This document shows, piece after piece, positions 8,792-28,386 of a stretch of DNA of 35,272 nt. The stretch is taken from the IMG/VR virus record IMGVR_UViG_3300042901_001003, positions 1 to 35,272 of that record; one strand, 5' to 3'. Position 1 is the stretch's first letter; each line of letters starts with the position of its first letter. The notes under the pieces were generated by a model. It had not been told where the DNA came from, did no database searches, and worked only from the letters and a program-made list of their open reading frames with translations. Position numbers and translations under genes: made by a program. Origin of the DNA: a virus. Lineage: Duplodnaviria > Caudoviricetes.

Positions 8792-8965
8792 TTATTTTTT
8801 TATTTCTTCTGCTAATTCTAAAATAAAATTATTAATTTGTTCCTCGCTCCAACTTAAAGCAATTAAATGAGCTTTAAAAGATGTGAATAATTGTTCTAAA
8901 CTTACATCGGAATTATTAAATTCTGTTGTATGTTGTTCCCATTTAGTTCGTGTTATTAGTTCCAT
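8792..8965 (-). CDS. Hypothetical protein (57 aa, not in ORF track)
   Basis: Manual translation MELITRTKWEQH...EIKK*; overlaps end of upstream gene. Confidence 0.6.
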   Translation of the reverse strand: MELITRTKWEQHTTEFNNSDVSLEQLFTSFKAHLIALSWSEEQINNFILELAEEIKK

Positions 8966-9167
8966 TAGTAATGTCTTTTAAATAATTAAAAGTAGATTCT
9001 GATTTTTCTCCCCAAAAGAAATCGCAAATAAAAACGTTATCTTTTATTTTTCCAACGTTGTCATCTGAAAAATACGATTGTCTATATTCGCTATCTTTAG
9101 AAGTAAATCTATAACATTTTTCTTTTATAGGGCAATTAATACCCTTACATTTTGTAATATCTGGCAT
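8943..9167 (-). CDS. Small Cys-rich phage protein
   Basis: MPDITKC.G.NCP.KEKCYRF...C..FW, possible Zn-binding. Confidence 0.7.
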   Translation of the reverse strand: MPDITKCKGINCPIKEKCYRFTSKDSEYRQSYFSDDNVGKIKDNVFICDFFWGEKSESTFNYLKDITNGTNNTN

Positions 9168-9172
9168 AATGT

Positions 9173-10315
9173 TTAAAATAAATGTGTAATTCGGGCAATT
9201 TGTCCGTTAAGTTTATGATGTAAAAATCCCTCTATTGCTTTCGGGGCGTGTTGATATCCGTTCCTATGATGCCATGAATCCGTACCGCTTGGACTTCTTA
9301 ATGTTTCAACACAAACACCCATAACATCTTTACTTACTTTATGATGCAAATGATGTGTATAAAAATATTTATGTTTGCACGCTTGCCAACTATCCGATTC
9401 ATGAGCCATCAATAAAGCTAAATTTTCAGTCTTTGCACCATCTCCATGAGTTGAACCTATTAAGTTATTAAAGTAAGTATAATATTTACGATGTGCGATG
9501 TCAACATTAAAAGTTACATTTTCGCAATTTCTAAAATGAGTTTCAATTACTTGTGCTAAAAAGAAACCGTGTGTATAATCGTGATTAGATGGATTGTAAG
9601 TAACGTGTGTAGGTGCTATTTGCATAAGAATTTCAATAACATCTACATATAATTGTTTTGCTATTATAAAATTAGTGTGCCACATTCCATCTGTATCTTG
9701 TGGTGTTCCTGATGTAGTTTGTCTTTTTGGACTATCAATATGTAAAATGTCGTTACCAATAATTAAATTTATTTGGTCAATTTCAAAACCTTTAACTTTA
9801 TTAAGTATTCCTTTTACGCCTTGAAGTACTCTTTGAACTGCTATTTGATTATTATAAGGCTCTCCAACTTCAAACGCACTGCATAACTTACCTATATGTA
9901 TGTCTGCTGGGTCAATAACTAATAAATGAGCGTCTTTTTTATCTTCGTAAACTATTTTATTGTATTTAGGAATATAAGTCTTTAAATCGCTTAATAATAC
10001 TTTTGATAAAGTTTCAAAGTCTTTTTCTTGTAATTCTTTATAATCAGGATTTTTTACAAATAAACTTGAATTTTTATCTTTTAACCAAAGGTGTTTGACA
10101 TTTGTAGTATCAACTTGTAAATTATTAGTCGCTTCTTTTATTCCTTTGTTACGAAACTTATAAATATATTTTCTTAAAGCATTTAATTCAGGATTTTTAT
10201 TATGTGGTAAATTATTATTTAAAATAAGTTTACCTATTTTATCATCTGAATAATCACTTTCTTTTATATAAGATTCTATTTGATTATCGAATTTAGACCA
10301 CTTGCTTTTTATCAT
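9173..10315 (-). CDS. Calcineurin-like metallophosphoesterase
   Basis: Motifs ADIHIGK, GNDILHID, NPSNHD, HGD and HHLHH. Confidence 0.8.
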   Translation of the reverse strand: MIKSKWSKFDNQIESYIKESDYSDDKIGKLILNNNLPHNKNPELNALRKYIYKFRNKGIKEATNNLQVDTTNVKHLWLKDKNSSLFVKNPDYKELQEKDFETLSKVLLSDLKTYIPKYNKIVYEDKKDAHLLVIDPADIHIGKLCSAFEVGEPYNNQIAVQRVLQGVKGILNKVKGFEIDQINLIIGNDILHIDSPKRQTTSGTPQDTDGMWHTNFIIAKQLYVDVIEILMQIAPTHVTYNPSNHDYTHGFFLAQVIETHFRNCENVTFNVDIAHRKYYTYFNNLIGSTHGDGAKTENLALLMAHESDSWQACKHKYFYTHHLHHKVSKDVMGVCVETLRSPSGTDSWHHRNGYQHAPKAIEGFLHHKLNGQIARITHLF

Positions 10316-10728
10316 AAAGAAGTTTTTTTATTAATATACCAAATTATAACCAACACAACTAAAAATAAAAACAAAGCTATTATACCCGCTATTCCTAAAA
10401 AAAGAGTAGTATTGTCGGTTTCTTTGTGTTTGTCTTTTATTTCAACTATTTGCGTGTCTAGTTTGTGAATTGTATCTTTTTGAATATGCCACCTATCCCG
10501 ATAATGATTTTCAATCATAACATTAACGATTGTATCTTTTCCTATTAGCATAGGTTTTGTAGCGTCAAAAGGTCGCAAGATAAACGAACTATCACGAAAT
10601 CTTTTTAAATCAATTTTAGACGCATTAAAATCGCTTTTAGATTCTATTTCTATACTTGTTTTATCTTTTTTAACAGAACCGCAAGAAAGTAAACTAATTG
10701 CGATTAGTAGTAAGGTTATTTTTTTCAT
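10312..10728 (-). CDS. Lipoprotein with C-terminal TM helix (possible unimolecular spanin)
   Basis: MKKITLLLIAISLLSC lipobox signal; C-terminal LFLGIAGIIALFLFLVVLVIIWY helix followed by KK. Confidence 0.6.
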   Translation of the reverse strand: MKKITLLLIAISLLSCGSVKKDKTSIEIESKSDFNASKIDLKRFRDSSFILRPFDATKPMLIGKDTIVNVMIENHYRDRWHIQKDTIHKLDTQIVEIKDKHKETDNTTLFLGIAGIIALFLFLVVLVIIWYINKKTSL

Positions 10729-10744
10729 AGTTTTAAAATTTCTT

Positions 10745-10897
10745 TTAATCTATTTCTTTAATGCTTTCTAAAAAATTTTCTATATCGGCATGAGTTACGG
10801 TGTCTTTGTTTAAATCTGAAACCATTTCTTTTCGTTCATCTGATAATAAATAATTACCAAAATCTACCAAATCTTTTTTGTTAAAATACATTTCCAT
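10745..10897 (-). CDS. Hypothetical protein (50 aa, not in ORF track)
   Basis: Manual translation MEMYFNKKDLVDFGNYLLS...EID*; fills the gap in the operon. Confidence 0.6.
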   Translation of the reverse strand: MEMYFNKKDLVDFGNYLLSDERKEMVSDLNKDTVTHADIENFLESIKEID

Positions 10898-10901
10898 CTT
10901 A

Positions 10902-11120
10902 TTATTTTTTAATTAAATTTTTCTCAAAAATACAAAAACTTTCTTTTAAATCGCTTATTGTTGTTTTTTTTCGTTTGTCTTTTTTAATTTCAGGCATATT
11001 TTTAATAACACTATCCCTTATAAATTTTGAAACATTTACTTTATTTTTTCGTAATTGCTTAAAAAATTCCTTCATTTTTTTATCACAAGTGAAAGTTTGT
11101 ATTTCGTTGTAAATTTCCAT
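10902..11120 (-). CDS. Putative ribbon-helix-helix DNA-binding protein
   Basis: QTFTCD strand followed by helix and NVSKFIRDSV, typical of RHH proteins. Confidence 0.5.
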   Translation of the reverse strand: MEIYNEIQTFTCDKKMKEFFKQLRKNKVNVSKFIRDSVIKNMPEIKKDKRKKTTISDLKESFCIFEKNLIKK

Positions 11121-11155
11121 TGTTTATAAGGGTTAATAAAATAAAATAATATTTT

Positions 11156-11185
11156 TTATAGTGTAATGTTGTAGTTATGAGCAAG
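11156..11185 (+). other. Candidate attI-like primary recombination site at left end of cassette array
   Basis: TTATAGTGTAA-TGTTGTAG-TTATGAGCAAG; the G/TTA at 11174 matches cassette 1 right end (CCTGCTCATAAC) and has no preceding hairpin. Confidence 0.55.
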
Positions 11186-11186
11186 T

Positions 11187-11489
11187 TTACTGACCGTCTT
11201 CGTAACGGCTCATTTCAAAACCGTGTGAATAAAAATCCCCAAGTCCACCAGCATCAATAACTATTTTATAATTATAATCTTCGTGAGAAACTACAATTTG
11301 AGTTCCTTCATCATTTTCTATATTTTCAGTTGGTATTCCAACACATTCTATAAAGTGTTGCATACTTTGGTTGTTATCCATACCCATATTATCGTTTTCA
11401 TTGATAATTCGATAGGATGTTTCTCCTTTTGCAAATTCATCAAACATTTGCGTTATCGAATTTGGTATCTCATAAATTTCTGTTTTCAT
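11187..11489 (-). CDS. Cassette 1 hypothetical protein
   Basis: 100 aa acidic ORF filling cassette 11175-11648. Confidence 0.75.
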   Translation of the reverse strand: MKTEIYEIPNSITQMFDEFAKGETSYRIINENDNMGMDNNQSMQHFIECVGIPTENIENDEGTQIVVSHEDYNYKIVIDAGGLGDFYSHGFEMSRYEDGQ

Positions 11490-11520
11490 AATAATTTTTT
11501 GTTTAAATTACACAACCTGC

Positions 11521-11654
11521 TCATAACAGCAATTTGGCAATATGTCGGTTTTGGTCTTTAATTTAATGGTCGTTTTGTACTTGTAGAAATTCGGTATTTC
11601 CGAATGTCTTGGCTTCTTTAATCCGCCACATCGCCAAGTTGCAAAACGTTAACA
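11521..11654 (+). repeat. attC-like site 1
   Basis: TCATAACA-GCAATTTGGC...GCCAAGTTGC-AAAAC-GTTAAC. Confidence 0.85.
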
Positions 11655-11660
11655 AATATA

Positions 11661-12104
11661 TTATTCTGAACTTTGTAGTAATTCAGGATTTTCATAAACA
11701 TTACCTTTAATAAAAGTTGTTTTAATCCAATATCCTAAATCTTTTCTAAGAACTTCATCATTAAATTCTAAGTAAAAGCCAATATGTAAAGCGTGTTTAT
11801 CGTCACAAGGATTTCTGTATGGTCCAAATTTTACAATACCTTTTTTATTTTCATCAAAATGATAAGGCATTATATCCCCTTCGTAAATCTCTTTTTCATT
11901 TTTATCTTTTAAACCTGTGTATTGCATAAACACAATTTCTTTTTGCCATTGTTCAAGCTCTTTTTCTTTATCATAAGTATCTTCATAAGATAATCTATAT
12001 TGAAATGTTTCTGAAATTGCTGAATCAATTTGGGTATCTTCTGGGTATATCATTTCATTAACTACTTGATTTTTTACCCATGCTCTAAATTTAATTTCTC
12101 TCAT
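11661..12104 (-). CDS. Cassette 2: YopX-family protein
   Basis: MREIKFRAW...MQYTGLKDKNEKEIYEGDI...GNVYENPELL signature. Confidence 0.9.
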   Translation of the reverse strand: MREIKFRAWVKNQVVNEMIYPEDTQIDSAISETFQYRLSYEDTYDKEKELEQWQKEIVFMQYTGLKDKNEKEIYEGDIMPYHFDENKKGIVKFGPYRNPCDDKHALHIGFYLEFNDEVLRKDLGYWIKTTFIKGNVYENPELLQSSE

Positions 12105-12136
12105 AATTTTATTTTTTTTATGTTTAAAAATACATT

Positions 12137-12271
12137 TGTTAACAGCGGTTTTGTGCTATTGCCGTTTTCGGCTAAATTTAAAGGTTTGTTTATATCTTCA
12201 AACATTTGTCTTTAATTTAAAAATTAGTGTGTGTTTTTTCGGCAACATCACAAAGCCTGAGAACGTTATGC
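12137..12271 (+). repeat. attC-like site 2
   Basis: TGTTAACA-GCGGTTTTGTG.TATTGCCG...CGGCAACATCACAAAGCC-TGAGAAC-GTTATG. Confidence 0.85.
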
Positions 12272-12277
12272 GTAATG

Positions 12278-13060
12278 TTAAGACAGCACCCTGCTAACCG
12301 AAACATTGTAATAATTTTTATCTTTTTCAATCCCTATGTATTGCCTATTTAACTCTTTACAAGCTAAACCAGTTGTATTACTACCCATACAATTATCCAT
12401 TACTACATCATTTTCATTTGAATAGGTTTTAATTAAGTATTTCATAAGTTCCAAAGGTTTTTGTGTTGGGTGTAATTTGTTTTTTTGGTTCGCATTACTA
12501 ATTTCAAGTATTGATTTTGGATATTTGAAATTGGTTGTATATTCTATTGAAGTTGTATTTTTTCTTGCATAAATATCGCTATCAGCTTCTTTTTTATACT
12601 TCCTTACTTTTTCTCTCTTTTCAAGTTGTGGTATATAAAGCATATTGTTTTTATTACAATTAGCTGTATTTGCTTTTGAAAATATTACAATATCCTCGTG
12701 GTTTTGCATCGGCTTTAATTTAGCAGTTAAAAAATTGCCAGGCTTTACCTTATTCCACACCCAAGTATATTTAAACATCTTTCTATTGCTTATTATCAAT
12801 TCAGTTGTAAATGGTTGCATAGCTGTTAATACTATTGCTCCATTTGGTTTTATAATCCTTTCGTATTGTTCCCAAAGTTTAGGTAAATCAAGTAAGCTAT
12901 CCCACTTTAAACCTGTTACATTATAGGGCAAGTCGCAAAGTATAAGTTGAACACTTGCATCAGCAATGTATGGAAATACATCGAAGCAATCAGCGTGGAC
13001 TAAAACACTACGCATAACATCGGTTTTGCAATAGTGGGGCGGAAGTTGTAAATTCATCAT
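12278..13060 (-). CDS. Cassette 3: orphan DNA methyltransferase (N6_N4_Mtase, beta-class order)
   Basis: Catalytic motif variant CDLPY, then HPTQKP, then SAM-binding DNCMGSNTTG...YIGIEKD. Confidence 0.9.
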   Translation of the reverse strand: MMNLQLPPHYCKTDVMRSVLVHADCFDVFPYIADASVQLILCDLPYNVTGLKWDSLLDLPKLWEQYERIIKPNGAIVLTAMQPFTTELIISNRKMFKYTWVWNKVKPGNFLTAKLKPMQNHEDIVIFSKANTANCNKNNMLYIPQLEKREKVRKYKKEADSDIYARKNTTSIEYTTNFKYPKSILEISNANQKNKLHPTQKPLELMKYLIKTYSNENDVVMDNCMGSNTTGLACKELNRQYIGIEKDKNYYNVSVSRVLS

Positions 13061-13142
13061 TTGTAATTCTATTAAAGTTTAGTTGTGGGTTGAACTTTTG
13101 TGCCTTGAAACCCCACCATCGCAAAGCCCCGATACGTTATAA
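13012..13142 (+). repeat. attC-like site 3 (contains MTase start codon)
   Basis: GCATAACA-TCGGTTTTGCAATAGTGGGG...CCCCACCATCGCAAAGCC-CCGATAC-GTTATA. Confidence 0.85.
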
Positions 13143-13148
13143 GTAACT

Positions 13149-13430
13149 TTATGAAGTAGTTTGCGTACAAATTGAATGAACATCTTTAATCAAATTGTCA
13201 ACAAACCATTTGTTATCTTCACAATCTAAATTGCTCCAACCATAATCAAATTCAAGTTTTTCTTTTATTTGTTCTAAAATTTTTTCGTCAATTTGTTTTT
13301 TACAATCTTCTATACTTTCTCCAGAACCTATTGCAAAATCTTCATCTTCTGAAAAGAAATGCACTTTGCTATTTTTTGGTGCGAATCCTGATTTATCAAA
13401 TTCAAACCAAAAACCTTTATATATTTCCAT
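13149..13430 (-). CDS. Cassette 4 hypothetical protein
   Basis: 93 aa ORF filling cassette 13137-13576. Confidence 0.75.
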   Translation of the reverse strand: MEIYKGFWFEFDKSGFAPKNSKVHFFSEDEDFAIGSGESIEDCKKQIDEKILEQIKEKLEFDYGWSNLDCEDNKWFVDNLIKDVHSICTQTTS

Positions 13431-13450
13431 AGTTTTAATTTAAAAGCTAC

Positions 13451-13582
13451 TTATAACAAATAATTGTATCAATAGCTTGTTTAGTGTTTAATTTAATGTT
13501 TTGCGTTTTTTTGTAATCTTATTTTAATCTGAAACGTATGGTAACTTTAGCACGCTACTAATACAATTATCATACGTTATAA
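13451..13582 (+). repeat. attC-like site 4
   Basis: TTATAACA-AATAATTGTATCAATAGC...GCTACTAATACAATTAT-CATAC-GTTATA. Confidence 0.85.
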
Positions 13583-13589
13583 GAAATAG

Positions 13590-13934
13590 CTACGTTTTCT
13601 TTTCAGTTGAAAATATAAGTTCTAAACCTTTTTTATATTTATTATTACGAATAATAACTTCATTAACCTGTTTGGTAACATTTTCAAGTAAGTAATTTAT
13701 TTTTTCATCTTTGTTATCAGTGTTAATTTCATAAGATAAAATATAAGAATTACATCTTTTATCAAATAAAGTGCTATCTGGATTTTCTATAAATTCTTTA
13801 GCGTTAAATATTTTTAATATTTTCTTTTTTCTATAAGCGTAACAATTTATAAGTTCTTTTTTGTATTGTCCTTGTTCAATAATAAGATAAAATAAATTAC
13901 CATAACAATCATAAGCTTCATATTCTTTTTCCAT
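13590..13934 (-). CDS. Cassette 5 hypothetical protein
   Basis: 114 aa ORF filling cassette 13577-14090. Confidence 0.7.
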   Translation of the reverse strand: MEKEYEAYDCYGNLFYLIIEQGQYKKELINCYAYRKKKILKIFNAKEFIENPDSTLFDKRCNSYILSYEINTDNKDEKINYLLENVTKQVNEVIIRNNKYKKGLELIFSTEKKT

Positions 13935-13965
13935 AATTACTATTTGTGTTTATACCCGCTACTTC

Positions 13966-14096
13966 TTATAACAGCAATTTGTAGAAATGGCTACTATTCG
14001 CAGTTTTGGATTGTTGTTGTTTAATTTATAATTCGTTAATTTTTGTTGTCTATTCGCTTGAATTACGCCACTTCTACAAGTTGCCAAACGTTAACC
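13966..14096 (+). repeat. attC-like site 5
   Basis: TTATAACA-GCAATTTGTAGAAATGGC...GCCACTTCTACAAGTTGC-CAAAC-GTTAAC. Confidence 0.85.
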
Positions 14097-14097
14097 G

Positions 14098-14268
14098 CTA
14101 TTTAAACTCAACTTTGTGGATAATTGAGTCTTTGTAGTGAATTGGAAATTTTAACCTTGCTAAAGTATGATAAGGAAAACCAAACTCTAAACATAGCTTT
14201 TTAAAATTACCTCTTACTATTGGCGGTTCGTTAGGTTGCAAAAGTACTATTGTGTTTTTTCGTTGCAT
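14098..14268 (-). CDS. Cassette 6 ORF c, small putative DNA-binding protein (56 aa, not in ORF track)
   Basis: Manual translation MQRKNTIVLL...GNFKKLCLEFGFPYHTLARLKFP...EFK*; HTH-like middle segment. Confidence 0.6.
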   Translation of the reverse strand: MQRKNTIVLLQPNEPPIVRGNFKKLCLEFGFPYHTLARLKFPIHYKDSIIHKVEFK

Positions 14269-14459
14269 AATTTTTCTTGGTATAAAATCTTTAATTTTTT
14301 ATGATAGTCTTTATATGATTTTGGTTTATCACATTTTTCTAATGGAGAAATATATTCATATTCGTAACCTAAAACCATTTGAGATAGTTTTTCTGTTTTG
14401 TATTCTAAATCACAATATTGATTTTTATTATTTGCTCTGCAATTTTGACATTTTTTCAT
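14247..14459 (-). CDS. Cassette 6 ORF b, small Cys-containing protein
   Basis: 70 aa; CxxC...C...C pattern. Confidence 0.65.
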   Translation of the reverse strand: MKKCQNCRANNKNQYCDLEYKTEKLSQMVLGYEYEYISPLEKCDKPKSYKDYHKKLKILYQEKLCNEKTQ

Positions 14460-14495
14460 AAAAATATGCGTTACAGTCGCATCCCTGTTTTTTTT

Positions 14496-14663
14496 TTATT
14501 TTAGTTCAACATTATATTTTTCTATCCATTTGGTAACTCCGTTTTTTGTAAGCTGAACTGAGTTTTTAGTTTCTTTTTCAACTACTAAAGTTTCTCCTAT
14601 TGATGCTCTAAATAATGATTTGTAAGAACCTTTTAAAACATTTTTTGTGAAAGTTGCTGTCAT
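14496..14663 (-). CDS. Cassette 6 ORF a (55 aa, not in ORF track)
   Basis: Manual translation MTATFTKNVLKGSYK...NVELK*; lies just downstream of the cassette-internal promoter. Confidence 0.65.
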   Translation of the reverse strand: MTATFTKNVLKGSYKSLFRASIGETLVVEKETKNSVQLTKNGVTKWIEKYNVELK

Positions 14664-14693
14664 AATTTCTATTTTTAGTTGTTATTTCTTTTA

Positions 14694-14724
14694 CAAATAT
14701 ACGACTAATTTTGATACTACCAAA
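14694..14724 (-). promoter_or_regulatory. Bacteroidota sigma-A promoter inside cassette 6
   Basis: Minus strand TTTG-N19-TATATTTG, an exact match to the -33/-7 consensus. Confidence 0.8.
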
Positions 14725-14763
14725 TAAAATTACAATTATTTTTAAAATTTATGTAAAAACAGC

Positions 14764-14898
14764 GGTTAACAGTGGTTTTATTCAATAGCGGTTTCGGTGT
14801 TTAATCTAAAAAATAGTGTGTATTTGTAAACTTTAGGCATAACCGAAATATAGTTTTTTACTTTTCCGCTACTGAAATAAAGCCACCATACGTTATAA
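14764..14898 (+). repeat. attC-like site 6
   Basis: GGTTAACA-GTGGTTTTATTCAATAGCGG...CCGCTACTGAAATAAAGCCAC-CATAC-GTTATA. Confidence 0.85.
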
Positions 14899-15096
14899 CT
14901 CATTTTGGCGAACCCTTATCAAACGACTTTTTTTGTCGAAAATCACATTTTCTTTTGGTATAATTTTAACCTCACTAATTAATATTTTACAAGGTTCATC
15001 TAAATACCAAATGTATTCAGGGTCTGTTTCTGAAATCATACCAACTTCACAATATTTTGGGTTAATTCCTTTCGGTTGAAAATATACTGTATTCAT
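14893..15096 (-). CDS. Cassette 7 ORF b, hypothetical
   Basis: 67 aa; stop codon is the TTA of the G/TTA core. Confidence 0.7.
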   Translation of the reverse strand: MNTVYFQPKGINPKYCEVGMISETDPEYIWYLDEPCKILISEVKIIPKENVIFDKKSRLIRVRQNEL

Positions 15097-15263
15097 AATA
15101 TTTCAGATTTTGAAGTTATCATTTTAAAGTAATTCAAGTGTATTTGAGCAGCAGCATAATATTTTAAAGCTGTACTAAATTTTCTTTCTTTTCTGAATAT
15201 TTTAGCTAAATATTTGTTTCTGTAATATTCTTTTTCGCTGTGTTCTTCAATTAAATTTTCCAT
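15093..15263 (-). CDS. Cassette 7 ORF a (56 aa, not in ORF track)
   Basis: Manual translation MENLIEEHSEKEYY...SEIL*; ATGA overlap with next ORF. Confidence 0.6.
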   Translation of the reverse strand: MENLIEEHSEKEYYRNKYLAKIFRKERKFSTALKYYAAAQIHLNYFKMITSKSEIL

Positions 15264-15275
15264 AATAAAAACGAG

Positions 15276-15300
15276 TTATAACAGCAATTACACGCTATTT
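15276..15300 (+). repeat. Truncated attC-like site 7 (left arm only)
   Basis: TTATAACA-GCAATTACACGCTATT with no matching right arm or CGTTA before the next ORF. Confidence 0.7.
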
Positions 15301-15548
15301 TAAGAAGCGACAACTACAATCATATCATTTTCAATTCTTCTAATAGCTTGCTCAACACTTAAATTAGTATTTACATAGTCTAGTTGTAACCAAAAAGGAA
15401 AATACCATTTCCATTTTTGGACTTCAAACCCGCCATAATTATCTCTAATTATTCTATATTTAATAATTTTAAATCCAATAAAAAAAACAGCAGGTAACAC
15501 AGGTTTTGTGCTATTGCTTGGCTCGGTGTTTTCTGAATGTTTAGTCAT
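15300..15548 (-). CDS. Cassette 8 hypothetical protein (cassette left end missing)
   Basis: 82 aa; N-terminus encoded within attC-like site 8. Confidence 0.65.
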   Translation of the reverse strand: MTKHSENTEPSNSTKPVLPAVFFIGFKIIKYRIIRDNYGGFEVQKWKWYFPFWLQLDYVNTNLSVEQAIRRIENDMIVVVAS

Positions 15549-15625
15549 AATCTGTAATTTTTAGTGTTTAAATTAAAATTTGTTTTATTTTTATGCAACA
15601 GGCACAAAGCCCGAAAACGTTATGC
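15492..15625 (+). repeat. attC-like site 8
   Basis: AGGTAACA-CAGGTTTTGTGCTATTGC...GCAACAGGCACAAAGCC-CGAAAAC-GTTATG. Confidence 0.85.
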
Positions 15626-15859
15626 CTCATTGCCCGAAAGAATAGAAACAATCTCTTTTCCTCTTTCAACACAATGATTTATTTCTTCCCATCCGTGACC
15701 ATCGTAATTTTTTTGATGCAATAATATTTCGGATGCTTCAATCAATTTTTTCATAACGTCTTTTAAACACCAAGCGTTATCCATTGCTAAAACAGATTGC
15801 AACGAAGGCATAACAGCCGTTTCAAGCAATTGCGGGATTTGTTTTTTATCTTCAATCAT
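15620..15859 (-). CDS. Cassette 9 hypothetical protein
   Basis: 79 aa; starts within attC-like site 9 and stops at the core TTA. Confidence 0.7.
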   Translation of the reverse strand: MIEDKKQIPQLLETAVMPSLQSVLAMDNAWCLKDVMKKLIEASEILLHQKNYDGHGWEEINHCVERGKEIVSILSGNEA

Positions 15860-15944
15860 CGGTCTTTAATTTAAGTTTGGTTATTATTTGTTATTTTTGG
15901 GTATTAAACCCCCGCAACTGCGTGAAGCGGCGGGAGCGTTAGCA
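15808..15944 (+). repeat. attC-like site 9
   Basis: GCATAACA-GCCGTTTCAAGCAATTGCGGG...CCCGCAACTGCGTGAAGCGGC-GGGAGC-GTTAGC. Confidence 0.85.
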
Positions 15945-15950
15945 GTAATG

Positions 15951-16373
15951 CTAAAGTGAATCTAACAAATCTTGTTTTGTAATTGTAAACTTATCCTTGT
16001 AATTTTCATAGTAAAGTTTAGGTAATAAATCTATAATTTTTTTGAAATCAATATTTTCATCTAAAATTTTAGTTATTTTTTCATACTCATCATCAGAATT
16101 ATTTTCTGAAAATCTATCATCATCAATTCTTTTAGTTATCCATTGTGAAGAAAAATTAATAATTGGTTCTAATTTAGAGCCTTTGCACTCAAAAACTGCA
16201 TCTTCTTCTAATTCTCTAACTTGTTCTTCTTCTCCGTCAAAAACTTTATAGATAAAATCCTCTAAATCTGTATAAAATTCACCATCTTCAAAAAAGTTTT
16301 CCATAAATCGCGAAGCACTACCGCTAACATCGGTTTTGTCTAATTCCTTAGAATTGTTTGTATCTGAAATCAT
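15951..16373 (-). CDS. Cassette 10 acidic hypothetical protein
   Basis: 140 aa, very D/E-rich; upstream start lies within attC-like site 10 (an internal Met start is also possible). Confidence 0.75.
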   Translation of the reverse strand: MISDTNNSKELDKTDVSGSASRFMENFFEDGEFYTDLEDFIYKVFDGEEEQVRELEEDAVFECKGSKLEPIINFSSQWITKRIDDDRFSENNSDDEYEKITKILDENIDFKKIIDLLPKLYYENYKDKFTITKQDLLDSL

Positions 16374-16456
16374 AATGTTTAATTTAAATATTGGTACTTG
16401 TTTGTTGTGTATAGTTTTAAATCATCGGCACTAGACAAAGCCGAGAACCGTTATAA
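16322..16456 (+). repeat. attC-like site 10
   Basis: CGCTAACA-TCGGTTTTGTCTA...TAGACAAAGCCGA-GAACC-GTTATA. Confidence 0.85.
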
Positions 16457-16462
16457 AACAGT

Positions 16463-16735
16463 TTAACCGACATCGTGCATATCATCAACTATCTTTTGTT
16501 CTTGTGTTCTTTTTGATAAATCAACTATTTCAACCCATTCAAAACCATCAAACAAGGTGTCGTGTCTATTATCATCATGGTTTTTTCTTAGATGTTTAGG
16601 TTTTGAATAAGCTTTTAATTGACCATTAACCTCTTCAAAATAATCTCCTTCTACATAATCTATCGCATGAGGAACATATCTTATTGCTGTTCCTTTTCTG
16701 TAACCTCTTTTTTTTGCTTCTTTAATTAAGTCCAT
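16463..16735 (-). CDS. Cassette 11 hypothetical protein
   Basis: 90 aa; LIKEAKKRGY..G...W.EIV pattern. Confidence 0.75.
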   Translation of the reverse strand: MDLIKEAKKRGYRKGTAIRYVPHAIDYVEGDYFEEVNGQLKAYSKPKHLRKNHDDNRHDTLFDGFEWVEIVDLSKRTQEQKIVDDMHDVG

Positions 16736-16748
16736 AATAAAACCGATT

Positions 16749-16872
16749 TTATAACAATGGTTTGTAGCAAAACTACTTTAGGCTACCTTTCCATCGTTGG
16801 TTAATAATTCTTTTGTGTTTGTTGTGTGTGTTTATAATTCTACGTTCTGCTACAAGCCATCGAACGTTAGCG
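16749..16872 (+). repeat. attC-like site 11
   Basis: TTATAACA-ATGGTTTGTAGCA...TGCTACAAGCCAT-CGAAC-GTTAGC. Confidence 0.85.
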
Positions 16873-16888
16873 GTAATACTAAGAACCA

Positions 16889-17194
16889 CTAGGCGTTTTT
16901 ACGGATAAAATTCAACATTTCAGAACCGTGTTTAAAACAATCACAGCCTCTATTTTCGTCAAAAGGTTTTGTGCTTGGTACAGTATTTCCATTTAATTTA
17001 TATACAGGACAACTACTATTGCAACTTGAATGTTCACTATCGCAAATTTCGTACAATTCAGTACTTAAATTTTCTTCCGATATAGCACCAGTTCTTGCAT
17101 ATTCCATTACAGATTTAGGTGTCAAATCAGAATACTCAATATCTTTATCTGTTACTTTTTCGCCTTTTGCTAATTTGATAATTAATTCTTCCAT
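16889..17194 (-). CDS. Cassette 12 Cys-rich hypothetical protein
   Basis: 101 aa; C...H..C...CP...CDC cluster. Confidence 0.75.
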   Translation of the reverse strand: MEELIIKLAKGEKVTDKDIEYSDLTPKSVMEYARTGAISEENLSTELYEICDSEHSSCNSSCPVYKLNGNTVPSTKPFDENRGCDCFKHGSEMLNFIRKNA

Positions 17195-17240
17195 TTTAAT
17201 AAAATTTAATTGACAAACCCTGTGATTAAAAAAGTACTAC

Positions 17241-17373
17241 CGCTAACAAGGGTTTGCCAAAATGGTGGCGATAGTGCTATATTTGAACTTTTGTGCTTTT
17301 TATTGGCTTTTGTGCTAAACTGAAACATTCTGCTTTCTATCCCACCACTTCGGCAAGCCCTAATCCGTTAGCA
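17241..17373 (+). repeat. attC-like site 12
   Basis: CGCTAACA-AGGGTTTGCCAAAATGGTGG...CCACCACTTCGGCAAGCCCT-AATCC-GTTAGC. Confidence 0.85.
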
Positions 17374-17667
17374 AATAGTTTTAGAACACTCGTCTAAAAC
17401 AGCCACTAAAAGATGTTTGTTTAAATCTGAATTTAACGGCACAATTGGTTCTGATGGACAAATAGTTTTATACTGCTTTTCAAATACTGAAAGTACTTTC
17501 TCTACATCAATTTCAGGATATTTGTTTTTTAGCATATCTGTAAATGAAGTTCTTATTCCTATAATAATATTGTTTTCTTTCAAAAGCTCTTTGTGTTGTT
17601 CTTTTGTTAGGTTTTCTTCTTTTGATTTTACATAGCATTGATGTGCTGTAAGTTTTATTTTTTCCAT
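17368..17667 (-). CDS. Cassette 13 hypothetical protein
   Basis: ATG start at 17667 (MEKIKL...) preferred over the track's TTG at 17688; stop is the core TTA. Confidence 0.7.
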   Translation of the reverse strand: MEKIKLTAHQCYVKSKEENLTKEQHKELLKENNIIIGIRTSFTDMLKNKYPEIDVEKVLSVFEKQYKTICPSEPIVPLNSDLNKHLLVAVLDECSKTIC

Positions 17668-17679
17668 AATAAACCGATT

Positions 17680-17813
17680 TGCTAACAACTACTATATTCA
17701 ATAGCGGTCATTGGGTTAAATTCAACAATTTGTTTGTACTTGGTTTTTTCAGTCTTAAACCGAAACTTATTTTTGTATATTTAGCAACATCGTGTAGCCC
17801 CTAAACGTTAGTA
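17680..17813 (+). repeat. attC-like site 13 (arms poorly matched, probable hybrid)
   Basis: TGCTAACA-ACTACTATATTCAATAGCGG...GCAACATCGTGTAGCCC-CTAAAC-GTTAGT. Confidence 0.75.
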
Positions 17814-17826
17814 GCAAGTGATACTT

Positions 17827-18069
17827 TTAGTCATTGTAGAAAATTTCAGTATAATCAGCATCTTTACCACCACACCACCAACTTTTTACATTATCTATCG
17901 TTGTATCTTCAAGCCAACAAGAACGGAAATCAAAAGTCCAAACACTTCTTTTGCCAATCCATTTTCCATCAATTAATTTCCAAACAACATTGTTGGCATC
18001 TAACATACAACCCCCAACATTTCTTACAATTTCCTCGCAAAAGATGTTTGATATTTTATTGTAAACCAT
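17827..18069 (-). CDS. Cassette 14 Trp-rich hypothetical protein
   Basis: 80 aa ORF filling cassette 17808-18190. Confidence 0.7.
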   Translation of the reverse strand: MVYNKISNIFCEEIVRNVGGCMLDANNVVWKLIDGKWIGKRSVWTFDFRSCWLEDTTIDNVKSWWCGGKDADYTEIFYND

Positions 18070-18093
18070 TTCCGTTTAATTTACCGCACCAGC

Positions 18094-18196
18094 CACTAAC
18101 AGCGGTTTGGTGCAATTATTTTGCCTATTAAATTTATCTAAAGCTCGAAGTATCTGCAAGGCAAAATAACAGACACCAAGCGGCAAAACGTTAATC
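18094..18196 (+). repeat. attC-like site 14 (short, 103 bp)
   Basis: CACTAACA-GCGGTTTGGTG.AATTATTTTGCCT...AGGCAAAATAACAGACACCAAGCGGC-AAAAC-GTTAAT. Confidence 0.85.
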
Positions 18197-18400
18197 TTTA
18201 CTATAATCTAATTCAACTTTACAACCACTTTCTTCAAACTCTAATTTTACTTTTAATAACTTAGCGTATGTAACAGCTGGCGCCTGTGGATTTTTACTTT
18301 TAATCTGTAACGCTAATTTTGATGGTGTTACACCTACCATTTTTGCAAAGGTGTTATTATTCTTTGCGGTTTCTGAAATTAATTTTTGTAGTATGTTCAT
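18191..18400 (-). CDS. Small HTH (XRE/Cro-like) regulator, first gene of leftward operon
   Basis: NNTFAKMVGVTPSKLALQI HTH-like segment; start at 18400 preferred because 18424 overlaps the promoter. Confidence 0.6.
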   Translation of the reverse strand: MNILQKLISETAKNNNTFAKMVGVTPSKLALQIKSKNPQAPAVTYAKLLKVKLEFEESGCKVELDYSKD

Positions 18401-18421
18401 TTGTCTTATAATTTTATAATG

Positions 18422-18429
18422 CAAAGATA
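18422..18429 (-). promoter_or_regulatory. Leftward promoter -7 element
   Basis: Minus strand TATCTTTG (TAnnTTTG) about 20 nt upstream of the ATG at 18400. Confidence 0.7.
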
Positions 18430-18486
18430 TATAAATATTTTAAATAAAAAAGTATAAATTAATTTTTTTTATAAATATTTTCCTTT

Positions 18487-18494
18487 TACATTTG
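18487..18494 (+). promoter_or_regulatory. Rightward early promoter -7 element
   Basis: TACATTTG about 20 nt upstream of the ATG at 18514; divergent from the leftward promoter. Confidence 0.7.
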
Positions 18495-18513
18495 CAATAT
18501 CAAATTATAAGAT

Positions 18514-27526: not shown

Positions 27527-27607
27527 TGTATTGTCTCAGATACACATAAAAACATTATAAAAAATCCAACTATGATAAGACTGAGACCTTTGATTAGTTG
27601 GTTTTTT
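27527..27607 (+). ncRNA. Putative structured leader RNA, copy 2
   Basis: TGTAT/ATACA stem with loop GTCTCAG; second stem CCAACTA/TAGTTGG with loop CTGAGAC; T tract follows. Confidence 0.55.
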
Positions 27608-27612
27608 CATTT

Positions 27613-28386
27613 ATGATAGGAATATATAAAATTACAAGTCCAACAAAAAAAGTTTATATTGGTCAAAGTATAAACATTGAAAAAAGAATAAAGGATTATT
27701 CTAATTTAAAAAACTGCATTGAACAACCAAAATTATATAATTCGTTTTTAAAACACAAAGTAGAAAATCATATTTTTGAAATAATATGTGAATGTGAAAT
27801 AACAAAACTTAATGAATTAGAAAGATATTATCAAGAATTGTATAACGTTATTCAAACAGGATTAAATTGTGTTTTAACAAATACACAAGATAGATGCGGA
27901 TTTTTAAGTAAAGAAACAAAATTAAAAATTTCAAACTCAAAAAAAGGACAAGGTAAAGGAATTAAAAAAAGTATTGAATTTAAACAGTCAGTTTCAAAAA
28001 ATAATAAATTAAGAGTTTGGAAACAAGAATCTAAATTAAAATTATCTAAAAGTTTAAAAGGAAAATTTAAAGGTGAGCTAAACCCATTTTTTGGAAAAAC
28101 ACACACTAAAGAATCTTTATTAAAAATGAGTGAATCATCAAAAAACAGAAAACCACCAATGCTAGGAAAAAAACACTCAATAGAAACAAAAAACAAAATA
28201 AAAGAAAAAAATAAATTAAAAACATTTGGTAAAAATTCTAATGCTAAAATAGTTTTAGATATTTCAAATGGTATTTATTATGAGTGTGTAAAAGAGTTAG
28301 CAATTATATTAAATATTAATAGACATACTTTGTCAAGAAAAATAAGAGGTGACAGAAAAAATAATACTAATTATATTTACGTATGA
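27613..28386 (+). CDS. GIY-YIG homing endonuclease with NUMOD3-like repeats
   Basis: GIYKIT...VYIGQS...R...E; NPFFGKTHTKES and GKKHSIETK repeats; C-terminal HTH; ATG at 27613. Confidence 0.92.
   Translation: MIGIYKITSPTKKVYIGQSINIEKRIKDYSNLKNCIEQPKLYNSFLKHKVENHIFEIICECEITKLNELERYYQELYNVIQTGLNCVLTNTQDRCGFLSKETKLKISNSKKGQGKGIKKSIEFKQSVSKNNKLRVWKQESKLKLSKSLKGKFKGELNPFFGKTHTKESLLKMSESSKNRKPPMLGKKHSIETKNKIKEKNKLKTFGKNSNAKIVLDISNGIYYECVKELAIILNINRHTLSRKIRGDRKNNTNYIYV

What the first reader, a model, noticed from the sequence alone, without database searches (positions are those of the whole stretch)
11187..18429. All cassette ORFs are antisense to canonical cassette polarity and read from the far end of the array
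End-matching puts each attC-like site at the right of its cassette on the + strand, where canonical cassettes would have + strand ORFs. All 17 plausible cargo ORFs are on the - strand, co-oriented with the leftward operon starting at the TATCTTTG element (18422-18429). Each attC-like site therefore lies 5' of its gene rather than 3'. Inference: this is a phage-adapted inverted cassette class. If new cassettes enter at the left site, the expression gradient is reversed relative to integrons. Such cassettes would also be silent or antisense under a Pc-like promoter in a host array.
Basis: partly seen in the sequence, partly recalled or inferred. Interest (0 to 1): 0.8.

Follow-up and report, generated by a model that had tools for sequence, protein, structure and literature searches.

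The report
Phage gene cassettes built backwards
A freshwater Flavobacterium-type phage carries a row of 14 swappable gene cassettes whose genes all face the opposite way to those in bacterial arrays using the same DNA hairpin site, and new cassettes likely enter at the end farthest from the predicted operon promoter, probably moved by a recombinase that the phage itself does not encode.

Summary
Observation confirmed. The array at 11174-18193 has a conserved entry site at the left, 14 cassettes, 13 whole attC-like hairpins and one truncated one. All 17 plausible cargo ORFs lie on the minus strand, so each hairpin heads its gene. End-matching alone is symmetric; polarity comes from the array ends, a one-sided bulge and relatives. 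The reversal is phage-enriched: among end-matched cassettes, viral loci are 252 reversed, 2 canonical and 36 unclear of 290; genome loci are 60 canonical, 4 reversed and 11 unclear of 75. Relatives swap cassettes exactly at the left G|TT. In cultured Flavobacterium phages one cassette moves from position 7 to position 1 although no recombinase was found in either genome. The associated enzymes are Xer-like, lack the IntI insertion and match the rAID-1 layout in hosts. The 'reversed gradient' needs qualifying: promoter-like elements sit mid-array in 12 of 12 arrays examined, and no RNA data exist. This scan has noted the same system before on other phage DNA. I found no published description in ten searches. 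Verdict: new variant of a known kind.

The parts
11130..11177 (+). attI-like entry site; crossover between G11174 and T11175; no hairpin on its left
   Evidence: The left flank is conserved up to G|TT in 17 related viral loci (one identical to the window) and in 11 cultured phages, followed by different first cassettes. Contig joints run 11173 to 11648, 12265 and 16450.
10902..11120 (-). 72-aa resident gene next to the entry site; weak lead to a ribbon-helix-helix family
   Evidence: Homologs sit in the same position in relatives. One Atlas cluster has 24% NikA-like members.
11187..11489 (-). cargo ORF, cassette 1 (100 aa)
11524..11651 (+). hairpin site 1
11661..12104 (-). cargo ORF, cassette 2, YopX family
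   Evidence: PF09643, E 3e-20
12140..12268 (+). hairpin site 2
12278..13060 (-). cargo ORF, cassette 3, N6/N4 DNA methyltransferase; start codon inside site 3
   Evidence: PF01555, E 3e-32
13015..13139 (+). hairpin site 3
13149..13430 (-). cargo ORF, cassette 4
13454..13579 (+). hairpin site 4
13590..13934 (-). cargo ORF, cassette 5
13969..14093 (+). hairpin site 5
14098..14663 (-). three small cargo ORFs of cassette 6 (14098-14268, 14247-14459, 14496-14663)
14694..14724 (-). bipartite Bacteroidota promoter-like element (TTTG, 19 nt, TATATTTG) inside cassette 6
   Evidence: conserved in homologous cassettes; function untested
14767..14895 (+). hairpin site 6
14893..15263 (-). two cargo ORFs of cassette 7 (14893-15096, 15093-15263)
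15279..15299 (+). truncated site 7, fused to cassette 8, likely by a deletion at a 6-nt microhomology
   Evidence: End-match 10 of 11; one contig in run X5 continues into hairpin-like sequence after 15299.
15300..15548 (-). cargo ORF, cassette 8; start inside site 8
   Evidence: phrog_8363
15495..15622 (+). hairpin site 8
15620..15859 (-). cargo ORF, cassette 9; start inside site 9, stop in the crossover core
15811..15941 (+). hairpin site 9
15951..16373 (-). cargo ORF, cassette 10; start inside site 10
16325..16453 (+). hairpin site 10
16463..16735 (-). cargo ORF, cassette 11
16752..16869 (+). hairpin site 11
16889..17194 (-). cargo ORF, cassette 12
17244..17370 (+). hairpin site 12
17368..17688 (-). 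cargo ORF, cassette 13 (ATG at 17670 or TTG at 17688); stop in the crossover core
17683..17810 (+). hairpin site 13 (poorly paired)
17827..18069 (-). cargo ORF, cassette 14
18097..18193 (+). hairpin site 14 (short); its G|TT joins the resident right flank
18191..18400 (-). resident 69-aa gene (weak HTH lead) whose stop codon forms the right half of the empty entry site; not a cassette
   Evidence: Five relatives share it from the G|TT onward, with different upstream hairpins. One Atlas cluster has 16% HTH_3 members.
18404..18512 (.). divergent promoter-like region: 48-nt inverted repeat with TATCTTTG (-, 18422-18429) and TACATTTG (+, 18487-18494)
   Evidence: function untested

Best explanation
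This is an integron-like cassette array in a Flavobacterium-type phage in which every cargo gene faces the opposite way to cassettes in host arrays with the same hairpin site; cassettes are likely cut out and inserted at the left G|TT site by a Xer-like tyrosine recombinase that the phage lacks and likely borrows from its host or a co-infecting phage. Shown: site anatomy, polarity, gene orientation, exchange at G|TT, left-end entry, the host-versus-phage contrast, and no recombinase in the contig. Inferred: the minus (bottom) strand folds and is recombined, as for attC; the phage cassettes were built with the hairpin at the gene's 5' end rather than flipped on insertion, because site polarity stays uniform and cassette ends supply the stop and start codons; and the array is part of an early leftward operon, so a new arrival would be read last from the far-end promoter but close behind mid-array promoter cassettes. 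The likely function is rapid shuffling of early accessory genes such as anti-restriction methyltransferases.
For: End-matching reached in 0 of 200,000 permutations. The minus strand folds more stably in 11 of 13 window sites and in 46 of 60 viral and 44 of 60 host sites. One mismatch at flank position 11, which pairs as G-T only on the bottom strand, occurs in 271 of 290 viral and 73 of 75 host end-matched cassettes. Orientation: viral 252 reversed, 2 canonical, 36 unclear; host 60 canonical, 4 reversed, 11 unclear. By locus: viral 107 reversed, 1 canonical, 4 tied of 112; host 36 canonical, 2 reversed, 6 tied of 44. Host arrays lie downstream of a co-oriented recombinase (63 canonical, 10 reversed, 15 unclear); phage arrays lie upstream of theirs (169 reversed, 1 canonical, 49 unclear). 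Cassette O is at position 7 in lillamy9-1, sniff9-1 and morran9-1 but at position 1 in lillamy9-7, with exact G|TT junctions. The 11 cultured phages have 7 different first cassettes, while distal cassettes L and M are in all 11. Joints link the entry site to cassettes 2, 3 and 11. PF00589 is absent from the window and from 5 of 5 related phage records. Stops fall at +1 or +13 of the cassette end in 150 of 252 reversed cassettes.
Against: No recombination assay and no RNA data. The contig is estimated 92% complete, so a recombinase could be missing from it; the complete cultured relatives lack one too. The window's entry site only loosely resembles the TATAT-rich site beside host and phage recombinases. 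One contig joint crosses at the left core (17241 to 17681, 8 shared letters), and site 7 was cut by microhomology, so homology-driven events also shape the array. The cultured arrays also differ at internal positions. The viral counts include near-relatives and are not independent. Orientation calls use longest-ORF rules, and most of the 19 loosely called 'reversed' host ORFs look like antisense shadows by eye. Exceptions exist: a canonical cassette in phage P12002L and a reversed 153-aa cassette in a host array.
Confidence: 0.8

Rival explanations
1. The hairpins are mRNA or translation-initiation modules, and genes shuffle by homologous recombination between them through the phage's YqaJ/SSB system, with no site-specific recombinase.
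For: There is no tyrosine recombinase in the contig, and a YqaJ exonuclease and SSB are present. Starts often lie inside the hairpin. The site 7 deletion and the 17241-17681 joint use microhomology.
Against: The sites are only about 60% alike. Each cassette's two ends are matched to each other. Exchange at the entry site happens where there is no hairpin and only a few shared letters. The same site lies beside dedicated recombinases in hosts and phages.
Confidence: 0.08
2. The enzyme source differs: recombinase-less phages like this one are served mainly by the short (about 267 aa) recombinase of co-infecting large phages, not by the host's array recombinase. This is a variant of the best explanation.
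For: 44 of 45 phage enzymes with upstream arrays form one branch (SH-aLRT 99, quick tree), and their arrays share the reversed layout. Window cassette homologs occur in viral loci only.
Against: Host enzymes are common: 76 of 121 family-level genomes have a match at E<=1e-60. Site features are shared by host and phage. The entry-site sequence does not discriminate.
Confidence: 0.3
3. Polarity is misread, or reversal is simply how all Bacteroidota cassettes are built, so nothing is phage-specific.
For: End-matching is symmetric, and on the minus strand genes often stop at a TAAC, as canonical cassettes do.
Against: The same polarity-aware detector gives opposite results in hosts and phages. The published aadA7 top strand also reads TAACA...CGTTA. 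Array ends and relatives fix the crossover.
Confidence: 0.03
4. Canonical cassettes were flipped on insertion by top-strand recombination, as described for attC (PMC5027507).
For: The mechanism exists in integrons, and one joint crosses at the left core.
Against: Flipping would invert the hairpin together with its gene. Here all sites keep one polarity and only the genes are reversed.
Confidence: 0.02

Closest known systems
Integrons (IntI, attI, attC cassettes, Pc), as described in PMC5027507 (passages read)
   Same: Single-gene cassettes bounded by imperfect hairpins with an AAC/GTT core. Crossover at G|TT, entry at one hairpin-less site, and a more stable bottom strand. The top strand reads TAACA...CGTTA, as in aadA7.
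   Different: Genes are reversed and the hairpin is 5' of the gene. The associated recombinases lack the roughly 40-residue IntI insertion and score under the TIGR02249 cut-off. The hairpin has a 3-5 nt one-sided bulge and an outer match of about 14 nt instead of the 5/6-nt spacer and extrahelical bases on the R'' arm. No recombinase is encoded.
rAID-1 clusters of Bacteroidales (bioRxiv 10.1101/471110 and PMC12247911, passages read)
   Same: The host version found here has the same layout: a XerD-like recombinase followed by co-oriented genes with repeated, integron-like intergenic motifs.
   Different: rAID-1 is chromosomal, canonical in orientation and carries immunity genes. Here the array is phage-borne, reversed and carries early phage genes. 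I could not compare the rAID motif itself, because the figure and supplement were not available.
Phage CALINs of Qi et al. 2023 (PMC9892861; passages, section 3.4 and part 1 of 2 of the supplement read)
   Same: attC-like clusters without an integrase in virulent phages, carrying methyltransferases. Their P12002L_attC1 is a short member of this site family, end-matched around a minus-strand methyltransferase, so it is also reversed.
   Different: In what I read, the paper notes only 'divergent directions' in P12002L, lists no Flavobacterium phage and does not describe gene reversal, an entry site or a non-IntI enzyme. P12002L_attC1 was the one of six sites that IntI1 did not recombine.
Lillamyvirus, Muminvirus and Hattifnattvirus Flavobacterium phages (PMC7077304; passages and a supplement search)
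   Same: Same platform: homologous left gene (48-49% identity), similar entry site and reversed cassettes. The paper links a methyltransferase difference to plating efficiency.
   Different: The word 'cassette' does not occur in the main text or the supplement, and 'attC' does not occur in the supplement. The region was not described as a cassette array in what I read.

Membership tests
Integron (IntI-dependent) | Integron integrase gene with the IntI-specific insertion next to attI | tested here: not met
   No PF00589 in the window. Array-linked enzymes score 198 and 207 against a TIGR02249 cut-off of 265, and align to IntI4 in two pieces around a gap of about 42 residues.
Integron (IntI-dependent) | Hairpin sites with an AAC/GTT core and crossover at G|TT | tested here: met
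Integron (IntI-dependent) | attC anatomy: 5/6-nt unpaired spacer, L boxes, extrahelical bases on the R'' arm | tested here: not met
   The best fit is a 4-nt bulge on the CGTTA arm (224 hits at 4 nt, 43 at 3 nt, 11 or fewer at other lengths; the fetch pattern favours 4) with a 1x1 mismatch.
Integron (IntI-dependent) | Single entry site (attI) where cassettes are added | tested here: met
Integron (IntI-dependent) | Cassette genes on the top strand, read from a Pc at attI | tested here: not met
   17 of 17 cargo ORFs are on the bottom strand. Transcription itself was not measured.
Integron (IntI-dependent) | Folded bottom strand is the recombined substrate | tested here: inconclusive
   Folding energies and the conserved wobble favour it; no assay.
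CALIN (attC cluster without integrase) | Two or more attC sites recognised by attC models or by IntI | tested here: inconclusive
   IntegronFinder was not available. One family member was called by HattCI but not recombined by IntI1.
rAID-1 | 5' XerD-like recombinase with co-directional downstream genes | tested here: not met
   The window has no recombinase and its genes face the entry site. Host arrays of this site family do meet it.
rAID-1 | Intergenic motif identical to the rAID motif; recombinase over 44% identical to BF9343_RS08045 | not tested
   The motif figure was not available, and the reference protein was not fetched.
rAID-1 | Cargo of orphan immunity genes | tested here: not met
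   The only cargo hits are YopX, a methyltransferase and unnamed PHROGs.

The most novel reading that the evidence does not exclude
Bacteroidota and their phages run two cassette pools on one recombination chemistry but build them in opposite polarity. Host defence cassettes captured by a phage entry site, and phage cassettes captured by a host array, would each land antisense and silent: a genetic firewall. Phage arrays would set expression by mobile promoter cassettes rather than a fixed Pc, and the hairpin can be attached to either end of a gene at cassette birth, which constrains how cassettes are made.
Probability: 0.3. Interest if true: 0.85.

Novelty: new variant of a known kind. Interest (0 to 1): 0.65.

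Why it matters
Integron logic rests on cassettes facing away from attI so that the newest is expressed most. Here a widespread phage array breaks that rule while keeping the site, the crossover and the entry point, and it is associated with non-IntI enzymes. It would explain a hypervariable methyltransferase region already linked to host range in cultured Flavobacterium phages (PMC7077304). It points to a likely mechanism for rAID-like clusters, whose biogenesis is stated to be open (PMC12247911). It bears on how a hairpin gets attached to a gene. It is directly testable, because cultured phage-host pairs with a caught rearrangement (lillamy9-1 and lillamy9-7) exist.

Tried and rejected
Sigma-70 promoter and terminator scans were at chance level (61 against 57.6; 4 against 3.4). 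TAnnTTTG alone was at chance, and the bipartite pattern was not significant window-wide (6 against 3.4; 10 of 100 shuffles reached 6). It is used only with position and conservation. Pooled over arrays, the shorter motif TAnnTTTGYA was commoner on the non-coding strand in both groups, so motif counts do not show transcription direction. Rfam: no match. Sequencing runs: no RNA holder listed. The first catalytic-motif test returned 0 through a pattern error. Rerun, it gave 40 of 41 host proteins with all motifs, and the C-terminal His/Tyr motif in 65 of 65 viral proteins. The recombinase tree is the quick one, built on 70 of 106 proteins (36 without a nearby site were left out); the careful search and the one-clade test did not finish, so no donor or direction is claimed. 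The automatic array walker mis-split the distal part of the window's own array, so only the L278/L279 comparison is used from it. No similarity was found between 152 host and 418 viral cargo proteins at E<=1e-6; the sample is too small to prove separate pools. Atlas hits for the two flanking genes are weak leads. Ten literature searches found no description of reversed cassettes. PMC8138268 and bioRxiv 2024.07.02.601686 (passages) did not bear on the question. I rejected whole-cassette flipping and misread polarity (see rivals).


Full report
Context. The window is a whole 35,272-base viral record, estimated 92% complete. It has terminase, portal, capsid, amidase, holin, helicase and YqaJ genes. 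Near-identical DNA is in lake-water metagenomes, and the closest cultured matches to the array region are Baltic Flavobacterium phages. The stretch 8792-18400 is a leftward block of small genes ending at a divergent promoter-like inverted repeat.

The observation. Fourteen sites begin with TAACA on the plus strand; thirteen end in CGTTA and one (15279) is truncated. The sequence after each cassette's left GTT matches the reverse complement of the sequence before its own TAAC: score 73 over 13 cassettes, reached in 0 of 200,000 permutations. All 17 plausible cargo ORFs are on the minus strand, with codon log-odds of +0.06 to +0.33 against -0.37 to +0.08 for the 11 plus-strand ORFs. Three other things do. 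The array starts with a bare G|TT at 11174 and ends with a hairpin followed by an unmatched resident gene. Each hairpin has a bulge on its CGTTA arm only. Relatives change sequence exactly at these G|TT points. The published aadA7 site has the same TAACA...CGTTA top strand, so plus is the top strand by the integron convention. The genes are reversed and each hairpin lies at its gene's 5' end. Four genes (cassettes 3, 8, 9, 10) start 45-53 bases inside their hairpin.

Is it phage-specific? I applied one detector to all loci. With a loose flank rule, viral sites were 180 reversed, 8 canonical, 39 unclear and 10 at an edge of 237; genome sites were 42 canonical, 4 reversed, 16 unclear and 6 at an edge of 68. 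With all later loci and only end-matched cassettes, viral was 252 reversed, 2 canonical and 36 unclear of 290; host was 60 canonical, 4 reversed and 11 unclear of 75. Per locus, viral was 107 reversed, 1 canonical and 4 tied of 112; host was 36 canonical, 2 reversed and 6 tied of 44. Both canonical viral cassettes are in one contig with the host layout, and one reversed 'host' locus looks phage-like. The viral set contains close relatives, so these are not independent counts. The genome set includes a few bins labelled outside Bacteroidota. Real exceptions exist: a reversed 153-aa first cassette in a Flavobacterium array and a canonical cassette in phage P12002L.

The machine. Host arrays lie downstream of a co-oriented tyrosine recombinase: over 41 loci, 63 canonical, 10 reversed and 15 unclear downstream sites, plus 3 others. 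Large phages carry a shorter relative with the array upstream and the genes pointing towards it: over 80 loci, 169 reversed, 1 canonical and 49 unclear, plus 7 others. The enzymes are closer to XerA than to IntI, fall under the integron-integrase cut-off and lack the roughly 42-residue IntI insertion. In a quick tree of 70 of 106 proteins, 44 of 45 phage enzymes share one branch (the careful search did not finish). Host and phage sites share the bulge, a length of about 125 bases, a more stable bottom strand, and one mismatch at flank position 11 that pairs only on the bottom strand (271 of 290 and 73 of 75). The window and five related phage records have no PF00589 gene, so the enzyme is inferred to act in trans. 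A site of this family, P12002L_attC1, was the one of six that IntI1 did not recombine in Qi et al. 2023, which fits a different enzyme (one case).

Where cassettes enter. Seventeen related viral loci (one identical to the window) keep a similar left flank up to G|TT and mostly continue with different cassettes; five keep the right flank with different hairpins before it. Two sister arrays share seven distal cassettes and differ near the entry site. Metagenome contigs join 11173 directly to the starts of cassettes 2, 3 and 11; the short side is 26 letters, which the tool flags for caution, but one contig carries the whole cassette 3 gene (12265-13126) without a mismatch. Among 11 cultured phages there are 7 different first cassettes, distal cassettes L and M are universal, and cassette O sits seventh in three isolates but first in lillamy9-7 with exact junctions. 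That is the signature of excision and re-entry at the left site. Internal gains and losses also occur, and two events look homology-driven: the site 7 truncation and a joint at the left core that removes 439 bases.

Expression. The genes point towards the entry site, so from the far-end element at 18422-18429 a new cassette would be read last. That element matches the Bacteroidota -7 consensus (PMC6847099, passages) and is conserved in some relatives, but the motif alone is at chance frequency. Cassette 6 carries a full -33/-7 element on the coding strand, and 11 of 11 cultured arrays have one or two such elements mid-array, all on the coding strand. Transcription is therefore likely restarted within the array, and a simple reversed gradient is unproven. 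No RNA holder was listed. The phage cassettes look adapted to the reverse reading: their loops are A-rich on the coding strand, as Flavobacterium initiation regions are, and stops fall at +1 or +13 of the cassette end in 150 of 252 cases. Flipping on insertion (PMC5027507) cannot explain this, because it would turn the hairpin too. The reversal is therefore inferred to be set when the cassette is made.

Comparison and novelty. It works like an integron but fails membership on integrase, attC anatomy and gene direction. The host form matches the rAID-1 layout, although I could not compare the motif. Qi et al. caught a site of this family without describing the reversal in what I read. Nilsson et al. 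linked methyltransferase content to plating efficiency without using the word cassette. Ten searches found no description; the library lacks many subscription papers. Earlier notes of this scan report the same system on other phages. I treated them as leads and tested the claims here.

Verdict. The feature is real and the central claim holds. The expression-gradient and silencing claims remain inference. New variant of a known kind; confidence in the mechanism 0.8; interest 0.65.

Noticed in passing
window 14694-14724 (-); cultured phages L456-L466: Cassettes carrying a bipartite Bacteroidota promoter-like element act as possible mobile promoters in mid-array; 12 of 12 arrays examined have at least one.
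   Followed up: partly
L457 and L458 (lillamy9-1, lillamy9-7): A 439-bp cassette sits at position 7 in one isolate and position 1 in the other, with exact junctions and no recombinase in either genome.
   Followed up: yes
L467:30008-30056 (phage P12002L): The published P12002L_attC1, which IntI1 did not recombine, is a short member of this site family heading a reversed methyltransferase. The same phage has one canonical cassette near 14625-15197 in its structural region.
   Followed up: partly
window 15279-15299: Site 7 is deleted at a likely 6-nt microhomology, fusing cassettes 7 and 8; a contig in one run seems to hold the intact form.
   Followed up: partly
window 17241-17681: One contig skips 439 bases between the left cores of sites 12 and 13, a crossover at the non-standard core or a microhomology event.
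   Followed up: no
L288:3704-8740: A Flavobacterium host array holds a Vsr/C5-methylase plus HpaII-like restriction endonuclease behind its recombinase, after a reversed first cassette.
   Followed up: partly
L145:5329-7034: A phage-like element in a Taibaiella bin carries reversed cassettes next to small virion-like genes and an ATPase.
   Followed up: no
window 27598-28386: GIY-YIG/NUMOD3 homing endonuclease between the small and large terminase genes.
   Followed up: no
window 10902-11120 (-): A 72-aa gene occupies the position next to the entry site that the recombinase holds in larger phages; it was not found in the recombinase-bearing viral loci. Its role is unknown.
   Followed up: partly
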